DNA from: Nitrospirota bacterium
GTDB taxonomy: Bacteria > JACPQY01
Length of the DNA stretch: 64,000 bases
Direction of reading: 5' to 3'
Assembly (NCBI GenBank): GCA_016180645.1
Contig: JACPAV010000002.1
Span: 174,628-238,627 of the forward strand
A program made the translations under genes and the position numbers. Of the stretch, positions 24,111 to 56,075 are shown piece after piece. The number at the start of each line of letters is the position of its first letter. The stretch's first letter is position 1. The notes under the pieces were generated by a model. That model had not been told where the DNA came from and did not search any database. It saw only the letters and a list, made by a program, of their open reading frames with translations.

Positions 24111-25148
24111 TCATAGCCGGCGATACTCGACCATGAGGGCATCCACGATCTTGCGGGGGTGCCAGTGCTGAACCATGAACTCCCGCGAGTTCCTTCCGGT
24201 TTCCATGCGATGGTCCCCATCCGAGATCAGCCGCCCGAGCACGGTTTCAAGCTCGGCCGAATCCCCCGCGGCCAGCCAAGGCAGTGCATCGGTTCCCGCA
24301 AACCGCGCCGCCTCCGAGCGGGTCCTCTCCGCCAGACGGGCAATGGTGGGGGTGCCTTGGCTCAAAGCTTCGAGCGACGACACGCCGAAGTATCCCTGCA
24401 AATGATCGAAAAAGATGTGGCAGTTTCGCTTCCGCTCCAGGCACTCGGAGTGGGGGACGTTTTCAATGAGGTCGAGGTCCAGGAAACCGTTGTATCGGGC
24501 CTTGAGACCCGCGTAGACGCGCACCAGGAGTTCGGTGTCCTTGATCTCCTTCTTGGTCGGCGACTGACCGATTCTTACTCGTGACTCGTGAGTCGCGACT
24601 CGTGACTCGTGGGGAAGGTAGAGTGGATCGTCGATGGGAACGAGATTGGGTATCCACGTGGCCTCCGGAAGAAAATCCAAGAGGTCCGGCGTGCTGACCA
24701 GAAATGTTCTTCGAGAACTCTGCGCGCGGAATCGAGCCGGATCGGATCGAAGGGGCTCGCCATGTTGATGGTAGATCGCCCTTTTCCCCTTCATGAAATC
24801 CTTGGCCCTGAAAGGACCCAGAGGCGTTTCCTCATCGGCAAAGGCGTGAAAGTGAAAGAGATCGGCATCGCGGAGAACCTGTTCGATCTCCTCCACGTTC
24901 GAGGTTCGATGACCTCCACGAAGGGGGAAATGCCGCGGGAGGGCAGGAGCCCGGAGCGGCCGTTCGACATCCGACGATTCCGGAACATGGATGTCCTTCC
25001 TGTAGTTGAAGTTGTATTTGACGGCCGTGGTCACCAGACGGCAGGAATGTTCGGTGTGACGGTTGATCGCATCGGTGAAGGCGATCCCCATCCCGGCGGG
25101 ATCATTGGTGCAAATCATGAGGATGCGCATCCCAATTCCCCTCGGCAC
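24111..25148 (-). CDS. glycosyltransferase-like protein carrying an in-frame heptanucleotide repeat
   Basis: C-terminal SSLEALSQGTPTIA region resembles a GT-B donor-binding motif; contains HESRVATHESRV encoded by the tandem heptamer array. Confidence 0.5.
   Translation of the reverse strand: MPRGIGMRILMICTNDPAGMGIAFTDAINRHTEHSCRLVTTAVKYNFNYRKDIHVPESSDVERPLRAPALPRHFPLRGGHRTSNVEEIEQVLRDADLFHFHAFADEETPLGPFRAKDFMKGKRAIYHQHGEPLRSDPARFRAQSSRRTFLVSTPDLLDFLPEATWIPNLVPIDDPLYLPHESRVATHESRVRIGQSPTKKEIKDTELLVRVYAGLKARYNGFLDLDLIENVPHSECLERKRNCHIFFDHLQGYFGVSSLEALSQGTPTIARLAERTRSEAARFAGTDALPWLAAGDSAELETVLGRLISDGDHRMETGRNSREFMVQHWHPRKIVDALMVEYRRL
24577..24611. repeat. tandem heptanucleotide array (ACTCGTG x2, AGTCGCG, ACTCGTG x2) inside a coding region
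   Basis: Five adjacent 7-nt units read directly; central GAGTCGCGACTC is palindromic; encodes HESRVATHESRV in frame. Confidence 0.7.
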
Positions 25149-34225: not shown

Positions 34226-37046
34226 AACCTCCTTCGTCCAGCCGGCGAGGAAAGACATCTGCCCCCTCCTCCCCTTTGTGCGGGGAGGCCGGGGGGGGTG
34301 GAGCTTCCGAGACTCGAACCAAGAGCCTCCGCGCGCCCCCGTGCCCCGGGTTCAGGGCCAGGAGCCGCTTGATTTCATCCATGCAGTCGGTTTCCTGCCC
34401 CGTTTCGGAAAGGAAAAGGATCAGGAGGTACCGGACCTCGTAGTCGGCGGCATGGAGGGCCAGGTAGTTCCTCAGGTGGCGAAGGGCCTCGCGCTTGTGT
34501 TCCATGGAAGCGGCACACGAGGCGAGGCCGATGACCGCCCGGCGATGATCACCGTTCCCGTCGATGAGGCCGCAGAAAATATCGCGGGCTCGGGCGTGGT
34601 CTTTCAGTTGAACCCGGAGCGCTGCAATTTCAACCAGCCGATCCGGGTCGCTCCCGGCTTCGCGGGCCAACTCGTCGACTTCGTGAGATACCTTGCCGGC
34701 GCCTTCCGACACGATCCTCACCTGAAGCAGCCCCACGCGACCGGCGAAGGATTCAGGGTCCACCGCGAGGAGGGATTCGAAGGCCCGCGCCGCTTCGTCC
34801 ATCCTCGCCGCCGCCAGCTTGCCCTCTCCGAGCAGCAAGTAGTACTCGCATAGCCGTCGCTCATGCAGCGAGAAGCGGGAGGAGACATGGGAAAGCACCT
34901 GAAAGGCCTTCGCAAGTTTCTTGGAACCCAGCAGGGCTCGCACCAGGGCCAGGTGGGATTCCGGCTTAGTTTCGTCGAGTCGAACGGCTTCCTCGAACTT
35001 CTTGGCCGCCTCATCCCACTGGGCCGAGTCCAGATGGGCTCGGCCTTCCGAGAGCAGGCGGGCAATGACCTGCTGCCTCGGGCGCGCCCGGAGGAGGTAC
35101 TGGAACGTCCTCATTTCATCGGCTGCGTTTTCCGCGTCGCTCCGCAGCTCCGCGGCAACCTTCTGAAGGCCCGGCAGGATGGCGTGCGGCGGCGTGGTAC
35201 GCGCGCCCATTTCCTCGATCACCCAGCCGGTGGTTTCGAACAGGCTCCGAATTTCCTGGAGCGTGAAAAATCGCACGTGGTCCCGATCCAGAATCCCCTC
35301 CTCCGCGTAGGACCATCGTCCGGACAGGAGTTGGCCGATCACGGACCAGTGGCCGACGTTCGGGACACTGGATACGACGCACCCCTGGGGCGTGAGCCGG
35401 GCCTGAAGGCCTTCGAGCAGGCCCCACGGGTCGTCAAGGTGCTCCAACACGTCGGACAGAACGATACAATCGAAGGTCTCGTCGCCCAGCGTCTTCGGGT
35501 CCCGCGCGTCCCCCGTGATCACCCGGTCCAATCGGCGCGCGGCCTCTGCCGCTGCTTCTTCCACCATCTCCACTCCCGTGATATGGACCCACGGTCGTCG
35601 GGTTTTCAGGTACGCACCGAAGCCGCCGGTGGCGCATCCGACATCGAGGATCCGTTCGGCCTCCCGCGGGATGAGCGGCTCGACTTCTTCCCTCGAATGC
35701 GAGTAGTAAACGAATGACCTCCCGCGAAAACTGCGGGTCTCCATCATCCCCATGGCCAGATGGGCCGTCCGCTCCGCCGCCTTGCCGTCGTCCATGTAAT
35801 TCAGTTCGTAGATGGAACGAGGACGCTTCAGCTCGAACTCCTGCGCGAGGGCGGCATCGTACAGTACGCGCCGTATCGCCTCGGCCAGGCCCGGAGCGTC
35901 CGTCACCTGGAGCACCGGATCGTGCGGCTGAAAAAGGGGATCGTGATAGCGCACGACCGGGAGGTTGATCACCGGTTTGCCGCACAAGATGCCGGCGACC
36001 CCCAGGAGGGAGTCCGCGCACACGACGGCATCCGAAACGTAGACGATGGGCTCGGGGTTCGCATCTCTTTCCACGATGCGGACGCGGGCCACTCCGGCCG
36101 AATCCGCCTTCCGGCGATACCACTCCTTTCCCTTCTGATCCGAGGGATGCAGCTTCACCAACCAGTCGCAGGATTCCGACTCCAAAGCCCGCGCCGCCTG
36201 GAGGAAGAGATCGTAGGCGCGCTCGACGAGAGCCGGGTCCGAGTGCGTGGACAGGCCGTGGGTCCAGGTCGAACAGTAGAGAACGATTTTCCGATCCGGC
36301 TGGAGATCGAACTTCTGCCGGAGAGCCGCCGCCCGTCCGCTGTTCCGTAGAGAATGATAGACGTCCCAGTAGGGGGCGCCGGTCACCACGATATTCTTAG
36401 GATCGTTTCCCCACCGAAGATACCACTGCCGGGTCCGCTCCCCCTGCACGGCGATCCGGTCCGCCCAGATCCGATCGTGGGCGTTGTGGAAAAGCGCCCC
36501 CATGCCGTGGAGCATGTGGAGCACGGGGATACCCCGTTTCCTGAAGAAGAGCGCGAGGGTCTTTCCATCGAGTAGGACGTCTTCCCAAAGGAGGGCGAGT
36601 TGGGGGCGATATCGCTGGACGGCCTGGTCGAGCATTTCAACCAGCAGAATTTGCTCCCGGATGCGTTCCCGCTTGAAGTGTTCCGCCGCCAATTGGGCGG
36701 CCACAACCCACGGTTCGGGCCAACCGAGATTCGTGGGCCAGAATCCGGGGAGTGGACGTTTCTCGTAGTCGTCCAAGATGCCCGCCATGGAAGGATTGAG
36801 CGACGCCTCGCGCACGTCCTTTTCCAGCTCGGGGACAACGGACACGCAATCCACTCCCACCTTCGTGAGCGTGGAAAAGATGTTTTCGCCGTAGACGAGA
36901 TAGGTGCTCGGACGGATCCGCTCGATTTCCTGGATCACCGGCAGGTACGCCGTGCCCACATAGGTGAAGATGGCGGGCTTGTCAACCACGGGTCGCCTCG
37001 CGTGGGGGGGGGGAAGAAATGGGAACAAGCTTGGAAAAGACGGCAA
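34212..37046 (-). CDS. multidomain protein: TagF-like (HP motif) transferase domain + class I SAM methyltransferase + TPR repeats
   Basis: CSTWTHG and LVKLHPSDQ resemble CDP-glycerol glycerophosphotransferase motifs; RILDVGCATGGFGAYL methyltransferase motif I; C-terminal TPR-like helical repeats; 944 aa. Start uncertain; G10 tract near 5-prime end. Confidence 0.5.
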   Translation of the reverse strand: MPSFPSLFPFLPPPHARRPVVDKPAIFTYVGTAYLPVIQEIERIRPSTYLVYGENIFSTLTKVGVDCVSVVPELEKDVREASLNPSMAGILDDYEKRPLPGFWPTNLGWPEPWVVAAQLAAEHFKRERIREQILLVEMLDQAVQRYRPQLALLWEDVLLDGKTLALFFRKRGIPVLHMLHGMGALFHNAHDRIWADRIAVQGERTRQWYLRWGNDPKNIVVTGAPYWDVYHSLRNSGRAAALRQKFDLQPDRKIVLYCSTWTHGLSTHSDPALVERAYDLFLQAARALESESCDWLVKLHPSDQKGKEWYRRKADSAGVARVRIVERDANPEPIVYVSDAVVCADSLLGVAGILCGKPVINLPVVRYHDPLFQPHDPVLQVTDAPGLAEAIRRVLYDAALAQEFELKRPRSIYELNYMDDGKAAERTAHLAMGMMETRSFRGRSFVYYSHSREEVEPLIPREAERILDVGCATGGFGAYLKTRRPWVHITGVEMVEEAAAEAARRLDRVITGDARDPKTLGDETFDCIVLSDVLEHLDDPWGLLEGLQARLTPQGCVVSSVPNVGHWSVIGQLLSGRWSYAEEGILDRDHVRFFTLQEIRSLFETTGWVIEEMGARTTPPHAILPGLQKVAAELRSDAENAADEMRTFQYLLRARPRQQVIARLLSEGRAHLDSAQWDEAAKKFEEAVRLDETKPESHLALVRALLGSKKLAKAFQVLSHVSSRFSLHERRLCEYYLLLGEGKLAAARMDEAARAFESLLAVDPESFAGRVGLLQVRIVSEGAGKVSHEVDELAREAGSDPDRLVEIAALRVQLKDHARARDIFCGLIDGNGDHRRAVIGLASCAASMEHKREALRHLRNYLALHAADYEVRYLLILFLSETGQETDCMDEIKRLLALNPGHGGARRLLVRVSEAPPPPASPHKGEEGADVFPRRLDEGGSPPS

Positions 37047-37209
37047 TCAATTCCTGTAGCAGGTCGTATTCAAGCGTGGCGGCCAGCGGGACGCCCTTGT
37101 ACGTAAGCGAACGCGCCACCGCGGGGTCCGTGCTCCACGCCAGGAGGTACTCATCCACCGTGAGGTCCAGCCGGCACCCCGTGCAGAGCGGCATCTCCTT
37201 CCACATCAT
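36982..37209 (-). CDS. small zinc-ribbon-like protein, paralog B (5-prime end possibly disrupted)
   Basis: Homologous by eye to the 40109-40351 ORF (shared CxxC...CxxC, W, LEY, KL positions). Only the second CxxC lies after the first ATG at 37209; the first knuckle is upstream with no canonical start and abuts the heptamer arrays. Confidence 0.3.
   Translation of the reverse strand: MMWKEMPLCTGCRLDLTVDEYLLAWSTDPAVARSLTYKGVPLAATLEYDLLQELIAVFSKLVPISSPPPREATRG
37004..37013. repeat. homopolymeric G10 tract (C10 on coding strand) in the 5-prime region of the TagF-like/MTase/TPR gene
   Basis: Read directly; encodes the PPP of FPFLPPPHARR. Confidence 0.6.
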
Positions 37210-37250
37210 TTCCGCGGTCCGGTGGTGACACCAGCCACAGGAAGGGCTGA

Positions 37251-37313
37251 GTGCCGAGTGCCGAGTGCCGAGTTTCTCGGACTCAGGACTCGGGACTCGG
37301 GACTCGGGACTTT
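37251..37313. repeat. twin heptanucleotide tandem arrays: (GTGCCGA)x3 and (GGACTCG)x4 flanking GTTTCTC
   Basis: Read directly; immediately downstream of the PIG-L stop. The two arrays are imperfect inverted copies of each other. Confidence 0.7.
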
Positions 37314-37319
37314 CGTTGC

Positions 37320-38003
37320 TCACTGTTCGATGCTCCTCACCAGCACGAATGCCTCTGCCGCGCCCAGCCCACAGTGGATGCCCCACTTCTTCGCATAAAC
37401 ACGCAACGATTCCGGCGACCGGGGATGGCCGTTGGCGCCGACCTCGCCCCGGTACTGCAAGAAGGCGTGAATCTTGGTTTCCAAAGTCCGGGAAATATCG
37501 CTGAAGGCGTTCGGCGTGAACGTGTTCTGCGCCCCGTAGATGTTCCACTCGGTCGAAGAGGGCGTTTCAAACGCGAAGATCCTTCTTACGGTTTCCCCGT
37601 GAATCGGCCGGAAGGCGGTCAACACAGCCTGATAGGTAATGCGGTGGTCCACGTTCAGGTCTCCCCAGAAATGGGTGTAGACGACTTCAGGGCGAAACTG
37701 TTTCTTGATCCGTTCAATGGTCTTGACCATGTCGAGGAGAGACATCGTATCGAAACGATTGTCGGGCAGGCCGAGGAAATGCACCCGCTCCACCCCCAGA
37801 ATGTCCGCGCTCCGGCGGCAGTACGTTCGAAGCGCCGAGACCAGCCGCTTGGGTGCGTGTTCCCGTCGTTCGAATCGCGCCGTGGCGCCTTCTCCCAGGA
37901 TGACCGTGTGGATCCGGTGCCCCTTGCGGGCCAGGCGGGCCATGGTGCCGCCGCAGCCAAGCACTTCATCATCCGGATGGGCGGCAACGACCAATACATT
38001 CAT
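37320..38003 (-). CDS. PIG-L/LmbE family N-acetyl-sugar deacetylase
   Basis: MNVLVVAAHPDDEVLGCGGT with the HPDDE zinc-binding motif; ATGA overlap with upstream gene; 227 aa. Confidence 0.7.
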   Translation of the reverse strand: MNVLVVAAHPDDEVLGCGGTMARLARKGHRIHTVILGEGATARFERREHAPKRLVSALRTYCRRSADILGVERVHFLGLPDNRFDTMSLLDMVKTIERIKKQFRPEVVYTHFWGDLNVDHRITYQAVLTAFRPIHGETVRRIFAFETPSSTEWNIYGAQNTFTPNAFSDISRTLETKIHAFLQYRGEVGANGHPRSPESLRVYAKKWGIHCGLGAAEAFVLVRSIEQ

Positions 38004-38752
38004 GCGGACACTCCCGATCGGATGATTTCCAGCGCCCGCGGACCCTCGTTGAGCATCAGATCGATGACAGACATGTTCGGAATGAAGGGATCGAAGCCTT
38101 GCCGATACGTAGGGTGCTGATAGTCTTGAAAAATAACCGCAATTTTCTCCCTATTGAAGGCCTCAAGGTCCATGTAGAGCCGTCCATGGGTACCCGCGTA
38201 GTATGTATCAGCTTGGAAATGCTTGCAGATCGAGACAAGCCGATGTGTGGCTAGTTCCTTTACATTCAATCGGTCGGTTGGACCGATTGAATCGGTCGAT
38301 CGGACCGATTCGATCGATCGATCGGTCAGTCTCAAGTCTGAACTCCTATACGTTCGAGGGGTAAGATTCATGCATCGAGAGACAACCTCGATAGACTTGA
38401 GACAGAGCAGGGACAGGTTCGAGCCTGACTCGGCGTAGATCGAACCGATGGGGGCTTCATACTCGGAGTAGAACGGGGCCTTCCTGTAGTTTGACTCGAT
38501 CGCTTTCAGGTGCTTCCGCCGCCAGGGCGAGCGCTCGTCCGTTTGGGTTTCGTTGATGGTTTGTCCGAAGTGGTGCTGGACCGGCACGGTGAGCCATTGC
38601 CATCCCTCGGCCGTGCGGATCTTGTTCCGGTTCTGCCAATCGTTCTTCGTGTATTGCACATCGTCGAGAAACACGAACACATCGGCACGGTCCATCTTCT
38701 CGAAATACCCGAGCCACGGGAGGTACTGCGGCTGGTGGATGGAGACGATCAT
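38000..38752 (-). CDS. WbqC-like family protein, paralog 1
   Basis: MIVSIHQPQYLPWLGYFEKMDRADVFVFLDDVQY matches the WbqC-like N-terminus. Start set to ATG at 38752 (ATGA overlap); carries an about 19-aa in-frame insertion relative to paralog 2. Confidence 0.65.
   Translation of the reverse strand: MIVSIHQPQYLPWLGYFEKMDRADVFVFLDDVQYTKNDWQNRNKIRTAEGWQWLTVPVQHHFGQTINETQTDERSPWRRKHLKAIESNYRKAPFYSEYEAPIGSIYAESGSNLSLLCLKSIEVVSRCMNLTPRTYRSSDLRLTDRSIESVRSTDSIGPTDRLNVKELATHRLVSICKHFQADTYYAGTHGRLYMDLEAFNREKIAVIFQDYQHPTYRQGFDPFIPNMSVIDLMLNEGPRALEIIRSGVSA
38265..38330. repeat. array of alternating-orientation 8-mers GACCGATT/AATCGGTC forming overlapping perfect palindromes, in frame inside WbqC-like paralog 1
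   Basis: CAATCGGTC-GGTTG-GACCGATTG, GACCGATT-G-AATCGGTC, AATCGGTC-GATCG-GACCGATT and GACCGA-TCGATCGATCGA-TCGGTC read directly; encodes TDRSIESVRSTDSIGPTDR. Confidence 0.7.
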
Positions 38753-40122
38753 GGGAGTGGCAAGTGGTGAGTGGCGAACGGCGAGTCGAGGGGGCCACGG
38801 CTCGGTTCTTTTGGCCCTTCGCTCGTCGCTCCTCGCTCGCTCCTCGTTGCTCGTTGCTCGTTGCTCGTTGCTGTCATGGCGTCCACCAACGCGCACACCC
38901 GGTCCGTGGCGCGTCCGTCGTTCAAGGCATTGAGGGTCAGGAGATCCGCCTCTCTCAACATCTCCTCCTCCATCGTCCTCGGTGCGCGAAGGGCCTCCAT
39001 GGTTTTCCGAAAGACCTCTTCCTCAGTGCGCGCTTTGAGGATCGAGGCCGCATCATTGAAGATCGTCTCCGGCACATGGAGCGAGAGCGACATAACCCGG
39101 GCGCCGTAGATCAGCGCCTCGACGGCCATCGTCGATTGAAAGCAAATCACCACGTCCGACGCCCTGAGCAGCGGCGCCAGCGCGGGCGCCAAGGAAAGGT
39201 GTCGCGGGTAGGTCGAGTGGACCCGGAGACCCTCGGCTTGAGCCAGCGCCTCATACTCTTTGTCCGCATAGGGATCGGAGGGATGGGGTTTCAAAACCAA
39301 CTGGAAGGCCCGGGCCTTTTGGGCCCGAGCGAGCGCGCGGAACGTATCGGCCATGACGTCTCCCGGCCGATAGGAATGCTCCCGGAGGTACAGACCGCTC
39401 CGCCACGTGGTGGCCAGACACACCACGGGGAGACCGCTCTGCAGCCCGATCTCGCGCAACGCCCTCGACTTCTCCCATTCGCCGCGGAGGCGGTAGTGCA
39501 GGTCCATGACGACCGATCCCGTGACGGCCAATCGATCTTCCGCCACGCCCGCCCGCCGGTACCAATTCCGGCAGCGCTCCCCGAACACAGACATGATGTC
39601 CGCATACACACGGTCATGCAGATTGGCCAGTCCGGGCAGCCCATGCGCGAGGCAGAGGCTGGGAACGCCATAGGCCCTCGCCAATTGAATCGCCACCCGC
39701 TGGAGGGGCCGGACGTCGTTGTCCACCATCAGCAGGCCCAATCCGCCCTCGACCGCCATTCTCTTGACGGCCACCGCAATGCCCAGCATCTGGCGGCTCA
39801 GGTTGGAGAACCGTGGCGCGAGACTCTCGTAGATTTTCACATCGGCGTATCCCCGCTCGGACAAGGCCGCCTCGAAGCCCATCGCCAAGCGGGCGCAGTC
39901 CTCCGGACTCTTCTCCAGGACGTAGCGGTCGATCGCCGCCAAGTCGCCCGGATCGAACAACGTCTCCAGGGAGGCCACGCTCCCCCCCCCCGATTTCCGG
40001 ATGAAATCGTAGGTCGTCGGGTTCACCACGAGGTCGTGCCGGGATGCCAATCTCCGGCAGAGGTGCTCATACCTCTGGTTCAGCAGCGCGAGAATTCGGA
40101 CCGGCACGTCAGGACCCTCCAT
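38749..40122 (-). CDS. TagF-like (CDP-glycerol glycerophosphotransferase-type, HP motif) putative transferase, paralog 1
   Basis: VVCLATTWRSG (PTWR-like) and QLVLKPHPSDP motifs; 457 aa. The C-terminal about 45 aa is encoded by heptamer arrays and may not be native; G10 tract near 5-prime end. Confidence 0.5.
   Translation of the reverse strand: MEGPDVPVRILALLNQRYEHLCRRLASRHDLVVNPTTYDFIRKSGGGSVASLETLFDPGDLAAIDRYVLEKSPEDCARLAMGFEAALSERGYADVKIYESLAPRFSNLSRQMLGIAVAVKRMAVEGGLGLLMVDNDVRPLQRVAIQLARAYGVPSLCLAHGLPGLANLHDRVYADIMSVFGERCRNWYRRAGVAEDRLAVTGSVVMDLHYRLRGEWEKSRALREIGLQSGLPVVCLATTWRSGLYLREHSYRPGDVMADTFRALARAQKARAFQLVLKPHPSDPYADKEYEALAQAEGLRVHSTYPRHLSLAPALAPLLRASDVVICFQSTMAVEALIYGARVMSLSLHVPETIFNDAASILKARTEEEVFRKTMEALRAPRTMEEEMLREADLLTLNALNDGRATDRVCALVDAMTATSNEQRATRSERGATSEGPKEPSRGPLDSPFATHHLPLP
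38755..38873. repeat. two heptanucleotide arrays (GAGTGGC-like x3-4 and GCTCGTT x4 exact plus degenerate copies) at the TagF-like/WbqC junction
   Basis: GCTCGTTGCTCGTTGCTCGTTGCTCGTT read directly at about 38847-38873; degenerate units extend upstream to about 38821; second array at about 38755-38790 directly upstream of the WbqC ATG. Confidence 0.7.
39982..39991. repeat. homopolymeric C10 tract (G10 on coding strand) in the 5-prime region of TagF-like paralog 1
   Basis: Read directly; encodes the GGG of IRKSGGGSVAS. Confidence 0.6.
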
Positions 40123-40351
40123 CCGGCGGGGAGAAGCGCGCCCCCAACTTCTCCATCGTCAACATGAAGATCTCGTACTCCAAGGCCCCCGCGAAGCTCT
40201 CCCCATCCCAGCGAAGGATGTCTTCCGCGGCTTCGCTCGCGCTCCATTCCGACAGCGCCGCGAGGACCTCCTGGTCGGTATGGCAGAGTTCACACACGGT
40301 GCCGTTCAGGCGCGACCCTCCAAGACCGCAGCGTTCGCACCTATCCTGCAT
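40109..40351 (-). CDS. small zinc-ribbon protein, paralog A
   Basis: MQDRCERCGLGGSRLNGTVCELC with two CxxC knuckles; 80 aa; lies between WbqC-like paralog 2 and TagF-like paralog 1. Confidence 0.4.
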   Translation of the reverse strand: MQDRCERCGLGGSRLNGTVCELCHTDQEVLAALSEWSASEAAEDILRWDGESFAGALEYEIFMLTMEKLGARFSPPDGGS

Positions 40352-41117: not shown

Positions 41118-41154
41118 CACCCGGCTCCCCTGTCGCATGACACCTGACGCATGA

Positions 41155-41844
41155 CTATTTTCGCCCCTCCACCAGCCAGTCCGAATCGGTCCGACCCGGC
41201 GCGCTTCCCACCTTCGCATATCCGATAAACCGCTGACGAAACCCGGCCGTCAGCGCATCGACGGCCGCCGCGTCGACAAACGTCACCGACATCCCCTCCT
41301 CACCGGTCTCGTTCGAATTCATGAGAAAGCAATGGGGAGCCAGCTCCCGCCCCCGCCCGTATCGGGAGTCATCCGTTCCCCGCAACGAGAAGAAGGCCCA
41401 CCCCCCCGGTTTCAAGAGTCGACGAATTTCCATGATGCCCGCGGCGGTCTCCTCGGGCCTGCCGTAGTAGAGGACGCCATAGCAGATGACCGCATCGAAG
41501 GCGTCCGACTTGAGAGGCACGTCCAGGAAGGTGCCCACGGCCAGCCGCCCGGGACTCCTCTCCGTTCGGATGCATCGGCGCAGGGAACGTCTCGCTCCAT
41601 CGATCCCGACGACGTCGAATCCTTCTCTTTTCAGCATCACGAGGTGCCGTCCTCCGCCGCATCCGAGGTCCAGAACGCGCTTCGGCCGCCGACGATTCCA
41701 AGAGCGAACGAGCCTCCGAGATACGAACCGGACGACATGATCGACAGGGTAGCGGGGGACCTTGTCGAGATTCTCCCGCGCGTAGAAGATTTCCCAGGGA
41801 GTGCCGGTGTTGTTCCTCTCTTGAACCGGTGTGGCGATCCCCAT
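41155..41844 (-). CDS. class I SAM-dependent methyltransferase
   Basis: RVLDLGCGGGRH motif I and DAVICYGVLYY; start set to ATG (MGIATPV) at 41844. Confidence 0.6.
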   Translation of the reverse strand: MGIATPVQERNNTGTPWEIFYARENLDKVPRYPVDHVVRFVSRRLVRSWNRRRPKRVLDLGCGGGRHLVMLKREGFDVVGIDGARRSLRRCIRTERSPGRLAVGTFLDVPLKSDAFDAVICYGVLYYGRPEETAAGIMEIRRLLKPGGWAFFSLRGTDDSRYGRGRELAPHCFLMNSNETGEEGMSVTFVDAAAVDALTAGFRQRFIGYAKVGSAPGRTDSDWLVEGRK

Positions 41845-54049: not shown

Positions 54050-55150
54050 CTACCTTGCGTAGGAAGTGGAATCAAGTGAATCGCGACGGCGGGCCGACGA
54101 TGAGCGGAATTCCCTCAGGTGTCGTTGCACTTCCTCCAACACTTTTTGAAGATTCGGTTTGCCATCCACGAATTTCCTCTGGAAGTCTTCCGATACACGC
54201 CTGAACTCCTCCTCGGCCGGGCCGTCGAGCTGCAATACTTGCACACCCCTCTTGCTGATGCCCTTGAGCGCCGTCTCTTCGTCCCTCCGCATGATTTCGA
54301 ACAGCTTGGGAAGTGCCACTTCCACTTCGGCCAGGATCAATTTGCGCACGCCCTCCGGGGCTTGGTCCCATTGCTTCCTCCCCGTCACCAACACGGCCTG
54401 CGCAAACACGCCGCCGAGCCTCGTCACGTACCCGACATCGCGATACCAGCCCAGAACCACCGCACCCAGGGCGTTGGCGAAAACGACTTCCAGACGATCC
54501 GCGCGTAGGGCCTCCTGCACCTGGGCCAGAGGGAGTGGAACGGTCTGAATGCCAAGATACTCCGCGAAGGCCGGGAGAATCCGTTCGCCCGGCCATACCC
54601 AGATCTTCCGCTTCTTGAACTCTTCGAACGTGGGAACGGGAACACGGGTAAACAACAAACCCGATCCGATGTCCGCCCACACGATCAGACGGAAACCTAC
54701 ACGGCTGAACGCCTCAGCAATGGTGTCGTTCATCTTGTTTCGGACGTACTCGATCTCCCTCTCGTTGCGGAAAAGATAGGGAAGGAGGAGGACCGTGAAC
54801 TCCGGAGAGATCTCCCCGATGCCGGAGAGGGTGAACACGCCCGCGGACAAATCGCCCTTCCGGACCATTTCCACCATGGCAGGTTCGTCGCCAAGCACGC
54901 CGCTCGCATGAAGTTTGAAACGGACCTGCCCCTTGCTCAGCGCCTCCACGTGATCCGTCGCTTCCTTGAGGATCTTCATGTAAGGGGAGTTGCCGGGGGC
55001 GATGGTGCCGAGTGAAAACTCCCAGGACTTTTGGGCTTGGCCGTAGGCGGAGAGGGGTAAAAGGAGCGTGGCGGCCGCGAACAGCAGACACAGGACTGAG
55101 GGCCGAGGGCTGAGGACTGAGCGGTGGAGATCCGCCAGTCTGCAACTCAT
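54050..55150 (-). CDS. TRAP-transporter solute-binding protein (DctP/TatP-like) with signal peptide
   Basis: N-terminal hydrophobic signal (VLCLLFAAATLLLPLSAYG) and DctP-family fold features; 366 aa; heptamer-like repeat lies in the signal-peptide n-region. Confidence 0.65.
   Translation of the reverse strand: MSCRLADLHRSVLSPRPSVLCLLFAAATLLLPLSAYGQAQKSWEFSLGTIAPGNSPYMKILKEATDHVEALSKGQVRFKLHASGVLGDEPAMVEMVRKGDLSAGVFTLSGIGEISPEFTVLLLPYLFRNEREIEYVRNKMNDTIAEAFSRVGFRLIVWADIGSGLLFTRVPVPTFEEFKKRKIWVWPGERILPAFAEYLGIQTVPLPLAQVQEALRADRLEVVFANALGAVVLGWYRDVGYVTRLGGVFAQAVLVTGRKQWDQAPEGVRKLILAEVEVALPKLFEIMRRDEETALKGISKRGVQVLQLDGPAEEEFRRVSEDFQRKFVDGKPNLQKVLEEVQRHLREFRSSSARRRDSLDSTSYAR
55091..55125. repeat. 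degenerate heptanucleotide array (AGGACTG, AGGGCCG, AGGGCTG, AGGACTG, AGCGGTG)
   Basis: Read directly at the 5-prime end of the TRAP binding-protein gene. Confidence 0.5.
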
Positions 55151-55159
55151 CGCTCAATC

Positions 55160-56053
55160 CTAGAAGATCTCATCCTTCCTCTTCTGGAGATCCGCCGCCA
55201 TTTGCTTGGCCAGTTGATTCAGGACGCCCGCCTCGGGCAGAAGTTCGTCCGGCGCCTCGAGAACGGCCCTCAGGTCCTCGTCGAACTGCTTTTCGTCGTT
55301 CATCAGCGTGTCGTAGTATTGCGCCCGGAGCACACGGATCATGAGAAATCGACCCTGAGTCGCCTTGAGCGCTTCCTCGAATTGCAACCGCGCCTGATCG
55401 GCCCCCCCCCCGGCCACGGCGGGAAGCGTCGCGTAAAAGACACCAAGGAAAACCCGCGGGCTGCTGAAGAAGTAGTCCGGATCCACCTGATTCACGCGGA
55501 ACAGGAGCGCCCGCACATCCGGAAGGTCGAACAGGGAGTCCACATCCATGAGATGGAGATTCACGTACGCGGCCCATGCCGTGAGCGTCCAGAACATGGC
55601 GTCCATGTCCTCCTTGTCAAGTCGCCTGACCGCAAGATCGAACGCCTCGCCTTTCTCGAGCGCTTTCGCGAACCCACGATGGGTCTTGAGCGCGCGCAAG
55701 CCGAAATCCCTCGCCTTGATGTACATGGCCGAGGCCCGCGATGGATCCGTTCTCTCAAGAAACGCCTGCGCGTAGCCTGCGAACGACCGGCAGGCCAGAA
55801 CGAGGAGGTCCCGGTGCTCCGGGTTCTGTTCCACCATCGCTTCGAGGAGCAGGAGGCTCGTAGGGGCGGCATCCCGTAGGAGAGCCAGATCAGTCTGCCG
55901 CTCGGCCACAGCCGAGAGGGCCTGGAGCTGACCGATGATCTGGTTCGCAGCCATCCGGCGGACGGCGCCGCACGAAGACGTAAAGAGTGATGAGTAAAGG
56001 GTGATGAGGAGGAGCAGAGGCCGTACGACTTGCCGGGGCTTCACATCACTCAT
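55160..56053 (-). CDS. TatT-like TPR lipoprotein associated with TRAP transporters
   Basis: Lipoprotein-like signal (LLLLITLYSSLFTSSC) and helical TPR-like body; adjacent to the TRAP binding protein; contains a G10 tract encoding AGGGA. Confidence 0.5.
   Translation of the reverse strand: MSDVKPRQVVRPLLLLITLYSSLFTSSCGAVRRMAANQIIGQLQALSAVAERQTDLALLRDAAPTSLLLLEAMVEQNPEHRDLLVLACRSFAGYAQAFLERTDPSRASAMYIKARDFGLRALKTHRGFAKALEKGEAFDLAVRRLDKEDMDAMFWTLTAWAAYVNLHLMDVDSLFDLPDVRALLFRVNQVDPDYFFSSPRVFLGVFYATLPAVAGGGADQARLQFEEALKATQGRFLMIRVLRAQYYDTLMNDEKQFDEDLRAVLEAPDELLPEAGVLNQLAKQMAADLQKRKDEIF
55402..55411. repeat. homopolymeric C10 tract (G10 on coding strand) inside the TatT-like gene
   Basis: Read directly; encodes GGG in AVAGGGADQ. 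Confidence 0.6.
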
Positions 56054-56060
56054 CACGCTT
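55981..56060. repeat. 14-mer direct repeat (TAAAGAGTGATGAG / TAAAGGGTGATGAG) plus inverted GTGATGAG/CTCATCAC copies at the TatT start
   Basis: Read directly; spans the start codon and signal-peptide region of the TatT-like gene and the gap before purS. Confidence 0.5.
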
Positions 56061-56075
56061 CACCCATCTCGCCGC

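What the first reader, a model, noticed from the sequence alone, without database searches (positions are those of the whole stretch)
38755..38873. Heptamer arrays encode the C-terminal tail of a TagF-like protein and sit directly on the WbqC-like start codon
GCTCGTT x4 (exact) with degenerate copies, and a second GAGTGGC-like array, occupy the last about 120 nt before the stop of the TagF-like gene and run up to the overlapping ATG of WbqC-like paralog 1. The about 45-aa tail they encode (TATSNEQRATRSERGATSEGPKEPSRGPLDSPFATHHLPLP) has no counterpart in the paralogous TagF-like protein. Repeat expansion here would change the tail and the coupled downstream start.
Basis: seen in the sequence. 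Interest (0 to 1): 0.45.

Follow-up and report, generated by a model that had tools for sequence, protein, structure and literature searches.

The report
Heptamer repeat arrays at gene junction
Two short 7-base tandem repeat arrays, of a known kind found at gene boundaries in this Nitrospirae genome, lie inside the end of a sugar-polymer enzyme gene and give it an unconserved 41-residue tail ending on the next gene's start codon; the feature is real but ordinary.

Summary
The genes lie on the minus strand. On the coding strand, a perfect (GCAACGA)x4.3 run (38872->38843) is followed by about 4 decayed units, a 27-nt spacer, and about 5 GCCACTC-like units (38789->38755). Together these encode residues 417-457 of a 457-aa GT-B/TagF-like ORF. 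Its TGA overlaps the ATG of wbqC as ATGA.

This is not a local oddity. Period-7 arrays are the only enriched tandem period in the window (8 regions against 0.3-0.65 expected). All lie at gene edges or between genes, apart from one inside an uncharacterised ORF.

The tail lies outside the family domain: homology in about 150 relatives and in the in-window paralog ends at aa 412-430. It is not conserved in the three orthologs and shows no codon-position GC bias. One ortholog carries different, complementary heptamer arrays at the same junction. Another has a 19-aa non-repetitive tail.

This matches the described class of heptameric SSRs and inverted pairs near stop codons. Unit changes would fuse the enzyme to WbqC (+1/-2) or read over its start (-1/+2).

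One independent assembly of the same strain breaks exactly on the 30-nt perfect run. That hints at a longer allele but does not prove one. I rate it a new member of a known kind, of modest interest.

The parts
38843..38872 (-). Perfectly periodic heptamer run, (GCAACGA)x4.3 on the coding strand, 30 nt.
   Evidence: Exact-period scan; TRF; sequence. Two Logan contigs from run SRR12113425 overlap by exactly this 30-mer.
38817..38842 (-). Decayed continuation of the same array: GGAGCGA GCGAGGA GCGACGA GCGAAG.
   Evidence: TRF row 38819-38872 (7.7 copies, 85% matches); sequence.
38790..38816 (-). Non-repetitive spacer between the two arrays. It forms the loop region in the predicted fold.
   Evidence: Sequence; MFE structure.
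38755..38789 (-). Second, degenerate heptamer array: about 5 pyrimidine-rich GCCACTC-like units on the coding strand.
   Evidence: TRF 38755-38786 (4.6 copies, 68% matches). It is one of 8 period-7 regions against 0.65 expected.
38752..38874 (-). Codons 417-457 of the 457-aa ORF: the repeat-encoded tail TATSNEQRATRSERGATSEGPKEPSRGPLDSPFATHHLPLP.
   Evidence: Translation. Not aligned in orthologs. Outside the family domain. GC by codon position is flat at 0.63/0.66/0.63, against 0.66/0.45/0.82 in the gene body.
38749..38752 (-). ATGA overlap: the wbqC ATG (38752-38750) and the upstream gene's TGA (38751-38749).
   Evidence: The ortholog in L001 has the same CCCATGA junction.
38749..40122 (-). 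457-aa GT-B/TagF-like surface-carbohydrate biosynthesis ORF. NCBI lists it as a hypothetical protein, HYT87_00935, from a Nitrospirae bacterium MAG.
38000..38752 (-). WbqC-like paralog 1, 250 aa.
   Evidence: PF08889, 256.6 bits; ortholog alignment.
37243..37313 (-). Sister element: an inverted heptamer pair, (CGAGUCC)n and (GGCACUC)n, between the PIG-L stop and the next small ORF. It folds as a hairpin with one mismatch per unit.
   Evidence: TRF; inverted-repeat arms of 32 nt, 78-88% complementary; fold z -2.74; arm-arm duplex z -4.1, 0 of 500 shuffles as good.
24575..24611 (-). Another heptamer array of the same class, (CACGAGT)x5, inside an ORF with no Pfam match.
55092..55121 (-). Another heptamer array (CTCAGTC-like, x4.3) in the first about 20 codons of a DctP-family solute-binding protein, ahead of its signal-peptide core.
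41134..41155 (-). Weak 7/14-nt repeat between the methyltransferase stop and the start of WbqC paralog 2.

Best explanation
The block is a pair of heptanucleotide simple-sequence-repeat arrays. One is GCAACGA-type and purine-rich; the other is GCCACTC-type and pyrimidine-rich. They belong to the known class of bacterial heptameric long SSRs that gather at gene boundaries.

Inferred: the arrays arose and grow by slipped-strand mispairing. They persist where they do little harm, which is between genes and at the extreme ends of ORFs.

Shown: at this site they fill the gap between the end of the conserved GT-B/TagF-like domain (about residue 417) and the wbqC start. The units contain no stop codon in any frame, so the upstream ORF reads through them to the TGA of an ATGA overlap.

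Inferred: the 41-aa tail is therefore a passenger product and not a functional domain.

Inferred, from published examples of ATGA overlaps: wbqC translation is coupled to termination of the upstream ORF at the ATGA. The two arrays and their flanks can fold into a moderately stable hairpin that holds the wbqC AUG in its basal stem. Ribosomes reading the tail would melt that stem.

Shown by arithmetic only: 7 is not a multiple of 3, so a change of unit number rewires the junction. +1 or -2 units gives a fusion with WbqC. -1 or +2 gives a read-through across the wbqC start. +/-3 gives only a 7-aa change in the tail.
For: 1. Period 7 is the only enriched tandem period in the window: 8 hits against 0.33 expected and 8 regions against 0.65 expected. 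There are 3 exact arrays in 64 kb. That compares with 4 in 692 kb of unrelated metagenome contigs.
2. The arrays sit at gene edges: a C-terminal tail, an intergenic gap, a 5' junction and a signal-peptide N-region.
3. The tail is outside the family. Matches in about 150 representatives end at query residues 412-430. Homology to the paralog ends at 419. Ortholog tails differ in both length and sequence.
4. The tail has no coding signature. GC3 is 0.63 against 0.82 in the gene body, binomial P = 0.004.
5. The ortholog in L001 (50% identity) has unrelated heptamer arrays, CAGGGGT and CCCCGAT, at the same junction with the same ATGA overlap. The ortholog in L002-L004 has no arrays, a 19-aa tail and an 11-nt gap.
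6. GCAACGA arrays occur in at least 120 genome stretches across many phyla. About 58% are intergenic by crude ORF calls. They are accompanied by 57 other heptamer arrays, against 3-7 arrays for each of periods 5, 6, 8 and 9.
7. Published descriptions match: heptamers are the commonest long SSR, and polymerase slippage was proposed as the cause (Mrazek 2007, as summarised in PMC4679880). Repeats inside ORFs lie at the periphery, for example at the MurG C-terminus. Xanthomonas heptamers lie within 50 bp of stop codons or overlap them, prefer 4 units, and include 70 inverted pairs (PMC4692102).
8. Fold of the junction: -59.1 kcal/mol, z -2.71, with the AUG paired.
9. Frame consequences were simulated.
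Against: 1. Two of two comparable boundaries carry paired arrays in both the window and L001, although L001 is no closer to the window than the array-free L002 lineage. That pattern suggests site-specific selection or a hotspot, not pure neutrality.
2. The hairpin at this particular site is weak. The arm-arm duplex gives z -2.4 (8 of 500 shuffles as good), and a reversed arm pairs equally well. The complementarity is therefore largely compositional. The ungapped inverted-repeat search did not report the two arrays as a pair.
3. Shine-Dalgarno use is weak across this genome, so the lack of one before wbqC says little about coupling.
4. The assembly-graph break at the perfect run could mean the tract really varies in length. 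A varying tract would fit an adaptive switch better than a passenger.
5. No expression or read-level data were available.
Confidence: 0.7

Rival explanations
1. The perfect heptamer tract is a contingency (phase-variation) locus in a surface-glycan operon. Slippage would switch the population between separate enzyme + WbqC, an enzyme-WbqC fusion, and a read-through that blocks wbqC initiation. That would diversify the glycan.
For: - The unit length is not a multiple of 3, and all three frames stay open through the block.
- The operon makes a modified sugar polymer (WbqC x2, PIG-L, DegT, formyltransferase, methyltransferases, NeuB), the gene class typically phase-varied in pathogens.
- In run SRR12113425, two contigs of the same strain end and begin exactly at the borders of the 30-nt perfect run and overlap by it. 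In a k=31 graph (k value from my own knowledge) that requires the 30-mer to have a second context, such as an allele with 5 or more copies.
- The same genes also carry G/C homopolymer tracts of 10 nt.
Against: - There are only 4 perfect copies.
- The tract is at the extreme 3' end, so no frameshift removes the catalytic domain.
- Sister arrays are intergenic or differently placed, which fits a genome-wide mutational bias better than a dedicated switch.
- None of 153 family representatives carries a WbqC domain, so the fusion product has no natural precedent.
- The graph break is equally well explained by another GCAACGA array elsewhere in the metagenome, and such arrays are common.
- The MAG and the Logan contigs all show the same 4-copy flanks.
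Confidence: 0.12
2. The paired arrays are a selected RNA (or DNA) hairpin built from complementary heptamer blocks, comparable to REP elements or to a terminator or attenuator. It would set wbqC translation, mRNA processing or segment stability within the operon. Units would turn over while complementarity is kept.
For: - Clear complementary pairs with one mismatch per unit occur at 37243-37313 (duplex z -4.1), at the L001 junction (z -4.4; fold z -3.68, 0 of 200 shuffles as good) and at the L001 PIG-L site (z -3.7).
- The units differ at orthologous positions.
- Nitrospinota and Nitrospirae MAGs carry (AGCAAYG)n-loop-(CTCATTG)n hairpins directly after stop codons, with z values of -5 to -8. 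Some are followed by U-runs.
- At this site the predicted stem encloses the wbqC AUG.
- Inverted heptamer pairs whose type is preserved between species are described in Xanthomonas.
Against: - At the finding's own site the pairing is weak and compositional.
- Single-block arrays in the window do not fold better than shuffles.
- Among 179 arrays from diverse genomes, reverse-complement partners were no commoner than complement-order controls. That control is not informative for the symmetric seed unit.
- No U-tract follows the stem here, and there was no Rfam match above noise.
- An inverted duplication mechanism could produce such pairs without any selection.
Confidence: 0.25
3. The tail is a functional, intrinsically disordered C-terminal extension of the enzyme, for example a linker or docking peptide for WbqC. 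On this reading, its being encoded by repeats is incidental.
For: - The ORF stays open through the block in two lineages.
- Many family members carry C-terminal extensions or extra domains after the same point.
Against: - The three ortholog tails share no sequence or length.
- Codon-position GC is flat.
- GC-rich heptamers lack stop codons in every frame, so openness needs no selection.
- The AF2 model was too poor to support any claim about structure.
Confidence: 0.05

Closest known systems
Heptameric SSRs of Xanthomonas and Nostoc (GGGAATC / GGGGAYT; Rehm et al. 2015, PMC4692102)
   Same: - 7-nt units, with four units the commonest number.
- Placed between co-oriented ORFs, within 50 bp of a stop codon or overlapping it.
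- Frequently occur as convergent (inverted) pairs able to form stem-loops.
- Position and pair type are kept between related genomes while length varies.
- The L001 ortholog's CCCCGAT array is literally of the GGGNATC type.
   Different: - The units in the window (GCAACGA, GCCACTC) have no G-tracts, so the G-quadruplex rationale does not apply.
- Here the arrays lie entirely inside an ORF and end on the next gene's start codon.
- Units differ between orthologous sites.
TAACTGA direct repeats of marine Beggiatoaceae, cyanobacteria and Bacteroidetes (MacGregor 2015, PMC4679880)
   Same: - Dispersed heptamer arrays of 2-6 copies, mostly just upstream of start codons.
- When inside ORFs they sit at the very end or very beginning, for example at the C-terminus of MurG (a GT-B enzyme) and of a glycosyl hydrolase, and show no homology to relatives.
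[quoted passage not shown]
   Different: - That family has one dominant unit, with stop codons in all frames in the forward orientation.
- The window has many different stop-free units and paired purine/pyrimidine blocks.
Long SSRs of 5-11 nt in prokaryotes (Mrazek et al. 2007) and cyanobacterial STRR heptamers (Mazel et al. 1990)
   Same: - Heptamers are the most abundant long-SSR class.
- They are enriched in non-pathogens with large, GC-rich genomes and in intergenic DNA.
- Polymerase slippage was proposed as the cause (as summarised; the STRR reference is from my own knowledge, plus the Calothrix mention).
   Different: I know of no published description for this Nitrospirae lineage. My four targeted literature searches found none.
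Phase-variable SSR contingency loci (for example the 7-bp repeats upstream of hmw1A in Haemophilus influenzae; PMC8262952, PMC11868660)
   Same: An SSR whose unit length is not a multiple of 3, in a surface-structure locus. Unit changes alter what is expressed.
   Different: - The known cases have longer tracts placed in promoters or 5' coding regions, giving ON/OFF switching.
- Here there are 4 copies at the 3' end and no demonstrated variation.
- I saw these two papers only as search listings and did not read them.
REP/BIME intergenic palindromes
   Same: Hairpin-forming repeats between genes of one operon. In E. coli they modulate mRNA segment stability (my own knowledge; PMC3333891 was listed).
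   Different: REPs are conserved-sequence elements, with an associated transposase in some cases. Here the stems are built from locally variable tandem units.

Membership tests
Heptanucleotide long SSR / STRR-type arrays | Head-to-tail copies of a 7-nt unit, at least 3-4 copies | tested here: met
   30-nt exact run, 4.3 copies, within a 7.7-copy array; second array 4.6 copies at 68% matches.
Heptanucleotide long SSR / STRR-type arrays | Period 7 over-represented in the genome relative to chance and to other periods | tested here: met
   8 hits against 0.33 expected and 8 regions against 0.65 expected. Periods 6, 8 and 9 show no excess. Only 64 kb of the genome could be tested.
Heptanucleotide long SSR / STRR-type arrays | Preference for intergenic DNA and gene peripheries | tested here: met
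   Window arrays lie in a tail, an intergenic gap, a 5' junction and a signal-peptide N-region. About 58% of 128 GCAACGA arrays elsewhere are intergenic by crude ORF calls.
Heptanucleotide long SSR / STRR-type arrays | Copy number differs between strains or related genomes | tested here: inconclusive
   The same unit GCAACGA is x1 in the window and x5 in L001 after the PIG-L stop. Same-strain contigs are identical where they span arrays. The graph break at the perfect run in SRR12113425 is compatible with a longer allele or with another locus.
Phase-variable contingency locus | Observed reversible length polymorphism of the tract within a population | tested here: inconclusive
   Only indirect evidence: two contigs of one sample overlap by exactly the 30-nt run.
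Phase-variable contingency locus | Tract changes switch a gene product on or off | tested here: not met
   Simulated changes leave residues 1-416 intact. They alter only the tail and the junction with wbqC.
Inverted heptamer pair forming a stem-loop (Rehm 2015 type) | Two nearby arrays whose units are reverse complements | tested here: inconclusive
   At this site, 4 of 7 positions per unit pair. Duplex z is -2.4, and a reversed arm pairs as well. The ungapped search did not report the pair. The feature is clearly met at 37243-37313 and in L001.
Inverted heptamer pair forming a stem-loop (Rehm 2015 type) | Located next to a stop codon between co-oriented ORFs | tested here: met
   The block ends at the TGA/ATG overlap, and both genes are on the minus strand.
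G-quadruplex-forming heptamer repeats (GGGNATC) | Four or more consecutive G3+ tracts on one strand | tested here: not met
   The units GCAACGA and GCCACTC and their complements contain no G3 run.
Intrinsic terminator | GC-rich stem-loop followed by a U-run | tested here: not met
   The scan lists no minus-strand (coding-strand) terminator-like site in 38740-38890. The stem is followed by CCAUGAUCGUC.
TagF / Glyphos_transf (PF04464), for the 457-aa ORF | Match to the family model above its curated cut-off | tested here: not met
   Only Epimerase_2 at 22.8 bits (cut-off 30.6). NCBIfam BFO_1060 at 47 bits (cut-off 200). PDB Cps3D at E 0.019. The paralog does reach PF04464 (25.4 bits against 22.1), and the two are homologous at E 5e-26. 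The ORF is therefore TagF-like in the sense of a distant GT-B relative, not a demonstrated member.
WbqC (PF08889), for the downstream gene | Match to the family model above its cut-off over full length | tested here: met
   256.6 bits, profile positions 1-217 of 218.

The most novel reading that the evidence does not exclude
Paired, complementary heptamer arrays might be a self-renewing class of operon-internal hairpins in Nitrospirota/Nitrospinota. Slippage would keep replacing the unit sequence while selection keeps the position and the arm complementarity. At this junction the tract would also vary in length within the population, toggling between separate, fused and occluded forms of a glycan enzyme and WbqC. 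That would be SSR-driven rewiring of translational coupling in a free-living groundwater bacterium.
Probability: 0.12. Interest if true: 0.55.

Novelty: new member of a known kind. Interest (0 to 1): 0.3.

Why it matters
For annotation, the last 41 residues of this protein should not be read as a domain, and similar repeat-encoded ends elsewhere deserve the same caution. Such heptamer tracts are also likely places for assemblies and gene calls to break.

For biology, the finding adds an uncultured Nitrospirae lineage to the scattered set of bacteria rich in heptameric SSRs. It also offers a compact test case. Orthologous operons exist with unrelated arrays at the same junction and with no arrays at all, and public read sets of the same strain are available. 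Those materials bear on the still-open question of whether such arrays are neutral slippage products, structural RNA or DNA elements, or mutational switches.

Tried and rejected
1. Search for more orthologous junctions. A protein-pattern scan of metagenome contigs found no relative of the 457-aa ORF. A degenerate DNA pattern for the WbqC N-terminus brought in 120 WbqC loci, but none has the ORF upstream. I used those loci only as a background for heptamer density.
2. Natural enzyme-WbqC fusions. There are none among 153 family representatives.
3. Structure. AlphaFold2 on the 5-sequence alignment gave mean pLDDT 45.9. I did not use it and ran no fold search.
4. Rfam. Only sub-threshold microRNA-precursor look-alikes matched, at the 37249-37312 hairpin and at the 22-nt repeat (38254-38345).
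5. The argument that a missing Shine-Dalgarno before wbqC proves coupling. I dropped this, because many starts in the window lack one.
6. A strong hairpin claim for this site. I downgraded it after the arm-arm test and the reversed-arm control.
7. A general rule that heptamer arrays come as inverted pairs. This was not supported across 179 arrays, and the control is uninformative for the reversal-symmetric seed unit.
8. Strand bias of GCAACGA arrays relative to genes. There is none worth noting: sense 33 against antisense 17 inside ORFs, and balanced between genes, all on crude ORF calls.
9. Target-site-duplication or mobile-element reading of the CCATGA at both ends of the block. No comparable flanks occur at the sister site, and units differ between copies, so I did not pursue it.
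10. Exact-protein look-ups for the 457-aa ORF, WbqC1 and two alternative start choices found nothing. PIG-L, DegT and WbqC2 look-ups succeeded.
11. Three of the five literature searches returned nothing relevant.
Full report
**What is in the sequence**

All genes in this part of the window run on the minus strand. The ORF 38749..40122 encodes 457 aa. The next ORF downstream is a WbqC-family protein (PF08889, 256.6 bits) starting at the ATG at 38752-38750. That ATG overlaps the upstream TGA (38751-38749) as ATGA.

Read on the coding strand, the last 123 nt of the upstream ORF consist of:
- (GCAACGA)x4.3, perfectly periodic, 38872->38843.
- About four decayed units: GGAGCGA GCGAGGA GCGACGA GCGAAG.
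- A 27-nt non-repetitive spacer.
- About five GCCACTC-like units, 38789->38755.

TRF reports the two arrays with scores of 57 and 36.

**Is it more than chance, and is it a local feature?**

Among tandem periods 4-15, only period 7 is clearly enriched in the 64-kb window. There are 8 hits against 0.33 expected in second-order Markov shuffles. At a looser threshold there are 8 regions against 0.65 expected, and the weak second array is one of them. All exact arrays of three or more copies with periods of 5-12 nt are heptamers.

The other arrays lie at:
- 37243-37313, between the PIG-L stop and a small ORF.
- 41134-41155, between a methyltransferase stop and the start of WbqC paralog 2.
- 55092-55121, in the first codons of a DctP-family binding protein.
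- 24575-24611, inside an ORF with no Pfam match.

As a background, 692 kb of unrelated metagenome contigs hold 4 exact heptamer arrays. That is about 6 per Mb, against about 47 per Mb in the window. The block is one instance of a repeat class that is spread through this genome.

**Is the tail part of the protein family?**

No. The protein is rare: four close relatives were found among 5.8 billion clusters. One is the NCBI record itself (a hypothetical protein, HYT87_00935, Nitrospirae bacterium MAG). The other three are orthologs at 50-54% identity.

The alignment is conserved up to ...NDGRATERVCALID.M, about residue 416. After that the tails differ in length (19, 19, 33 and 41 aa) and in sequence.

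An exhaustive HMMER search found 1112 distant relatives. In the 150 listed, the match ends at query residues 412-430 wherever it reaches the C-terminal part. The in-window paralog is the N-terminal domain of the 944-aa ORF, which carries Glyphos_transf, methyltransferase and TPR domains. It aligns at 29% identity (E 5e-26) up to residue 419 and then continues into its methyltransferase domain.

GC content by codon position is 0.66/0.45/0.82 in the gene body but flat at 0.63/0.66/0.63 in the tail (binomial P = 0.004 for GC3). That is what untuned heptamer DNA gives in any frame. The ORF stays open because these GC-rich units contain no stop codon in any frame.

**Orthologous junctions**

The operon order is conserved on the contigs carrying the orthologs: WbqC2, a small Cys-rich ORF, the enzyme, WbqC1, PIG-L, a second small Cys-rich ORF, then the large TagF-like/methyltransferase/TPR protein.

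- In L001 (50% identity) the junction has the same CCCATGA overlap. The tail there is encoded by different heptamers: (CAGGGGT)x3 followed by (CCCCGAT/C)x5.
- In L002-L004 (54% identity) there are no heptamers. The tail is 19 aa, followed by a stop, an 11-nt gap with a G-rich stretch, and the ATG.
- After the PIG-L stop, both the window and L001 again carry a two-block heptamer element. The unit GCAACGA appears once at this position in the window and five times in L001.

Position therefore recurs while unit sequence does not.

**Paired arrays and hairpins**

At 37243-37313 the two blocks, (CGAGUCC)n and (GGCACUC)n, are reverse complements apart from one position per unit:
- 32-nt arms, 78-88% complementary.
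- Fold z -2.74.
- Arm-arm duplex z -4.1, with 0 of 500 shuffles as good.

The same holds for both L001 elements: z -4.4 and -3.7 for the duplexes, and fold z -3.68 for the junction.

A Nitrospinota MAG (L023) and a Nitrospirae MAG (L029) carry (AGCAAYG)n-loop-(CTCATTG)n hairpins directly after stop codons, with z values from -5 to -8. Some are followed by U-runs, so they resemble terminators.

At the finding's own site the picture is weaker. The 171-nt region folds at -59.1 kcal/mol (z -2.71, 1 of 200 shuffles as good). Its basal stem pairs the ...VDAM codons with the first wbqC codons and includes the AUG. However, the arm-arm test gives only z -2.4, and a reversed arm pairs equally well. The ungapped inverted-repeat search does not report the two arrays as a pair. 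I therefore treat the two arrays as a purine-rich/pyrimidine-rich pair, perhaps a decayed inverted pair, and not as a demonstrated hairpin.

**Wider distribution and literature**

In those 878 kb there are 57 further heptamer arrays with other units, against 3-7 arrays for each of periods 5, 6, 8 and 9. By crude ORF calling, about 58% of the seed arrays are intergenic, with no marked strand bias. I could not run a control with other heptamers, so I make no claim that this unit is special.

The pattern matches published descriptions:
- Heptamers are the most abundant long SSR in many prokaryotes, with polymerase slippage proposed as the cause (Mrazek et al. 2007, as summarised in PMC4679880, and PMC4692102).
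- TAACTGA arrays in Beggiatoaceae sit just upstream of start codons. When they lie inside ORFs they occupy the extreme ends, including the C-terminus of MurG.
- GGGAATC-type arrays in Xanthomonas prefer four units and lie within 50 bp of stop codons or overlap them. They form 70 convergent pairs per genome and keep their position and pair type between species while their length varies.

**What unit changes would do**

Simulation on the coding strand gives:
- +1 or -2 units puts the enzyme frame into the wbqC frame, which is open from 38896. The product is a 709- or 702-aa fusion.
- -1 or +2 units gives a 552- or 559-aa product that reads across the wbqC start in the third frame.
- +/-3 units only lengthens or shortens the tail by 7 aa.

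The catalytic domain is untouched in every case. None of 153 family representatives contains a WbqC domain, so the fusion has no natural precedent.

**A partial answer to the read-level check**

Exact-protein look-ups for neighbouring genes found Logan assemblies of three other runs that are 100% identical to the window over 2.7-6.3 kb each, together spanning more than 10 kb.

In SRR12113425 one contig ends at window position 38843 and another begins at 38872. They overlap by exactly the 30-nt perfectly periodic run. By my own knowledge, Logan contigs come from a k=31 de Bruijn graph, and the 30-nt overlap equals k-1. A lone 4-copy allele gives no branch there. The break therefore means that the 30-mer has a second context in that sample. 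That context could be an allele of five or more copies, or another GCAACGA array elsewhere in the metagenome. Such arrays are common, so this is a lead and not proof.

In SRR12113385 the contigs stop at 38896 and 38869, which are not the repeat borders. The sister arrays at 37243-37313, whose perfect runs are 25-26 nt, are crossed without change in both samples.

**Conclusion**

The block is a genuine pair of heptameric SSR arrays of a described class, absorbed into the 3' end of an ORF. Its 41-aa product is most likely a passenger. I infer slippage as the mechanism that made it.

Its most likely present-day effect is also inferred. It acts as a stop-free spacer, possibly folded, through which ribosomes must read to terminate on the ATGA and reinitiate at wbqC. 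Whether the tract varies in length, and whether paired arrays are selected as hairpins, remains open but is directly testable with the public read sets named above.

Interest is modest and novelty is 'new member of a known kind'.

Noticed in passing
window 38264-38325 (minus-strand wbqC paralog 1): A 22-nt tandem repeat (ATTCAATCGGTCGATCGGACCG, x2.8) lies inside the WbqC coding region. It encodes an insertion (LRLTDRSIESVRSTDSIGPTDRLN) of about 22 aa relative to the L001 ortholog and about 10 aa relative to L002. Only changes of three units at a time would keep the frame.
   Followed up: partly
window 39982-39991 and 37004-37013: Two 10-nt G/C homopolymer tracts lie in the same operon. One is G10 on the coding strand inside the 457-aa ORF (residues about 44-47, SGGGS, a variable loop in orthologs). 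The other is C10 on the coding strand in the last codons of the small Cys-rich ORF, 15 nt upstream of the GTG start of the large TagF-like protein. The window holds three runs of 10, against about 0.6 expected from my own base-composition estimate (no tool test). These tracts look more like classical slippage-prone tracts than the heptamers do.
   Followed up: partly
window 40109-40351 and 36982-37209 (minus strand); L001 2878-3126; L002 4716-5000 and 7731-8033: Each of the two TagF-like genes is preceded by a small (75-113 aa) conserved ORF with a C..C motif and an EY.L....L helix, and no Pfam match. The two are paralogous and are kept in all the orthologous contigs. Their function is unknown.
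   Followed up: no
window 37243-37313: The intergenic inverted heptamer pair (CGAGTCC)n / (GGCACTC)n forms a hairpin of 6-bp helices, each separated by one mismatch. One gene call in the Logan contigs reads through it as an N-terminal extension of the small ORF, from a GTG that overlaps the PIG-L stop.
   Followed up: yes
window 55092-55121 and 55980-56072: A heptamer array lies in the N-region of the signal peptide of a DctP-family TRAP binding protein. A 14-nt repeat lies in the signal peptide of the adjacent TAtT lipoprotein.
   Followed up: partly
L001 5850-5919: The large TagF-like gene of the ortholog ends in a (GCCATGA)n array that runs to the contig end. Each unit carries ATGA, so the array supplies a stop and a start codon in all three frames within three units.
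   Followed up: no
L023 3075-3142 and 4397-4464; L029 5008-5143: Nitrospinota and Nitrospirae groundwater MAGs (about 41% GC) carry the same (AGCAAYG)n-loop-(CTCATTG)n hairpin at several intergenic sites directly after stop codons. Fold z values run from -5 to -8. Some are flanked by A-runs and U-runs, like bidirectional terminators.
   Followed up: partly
Logan run SRR12113385 (L003, L246, L248, L251): The window strain (100% identity) and the 54%-identical orthologous operon (P0003 lineage) are both assembled from the same sequencing run. Two diverged versions of this glycan operon therefore co-occur in one sample.
   Followed up: no
window 24575-24611: (CACGAGT)x5, with a central palindrome GAGTCGCGACTC, lies in the middle of a 345-aa ORF that has no Pfam match. 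The ORF may really be two genes, or partly non-coding.
   Followed up: no
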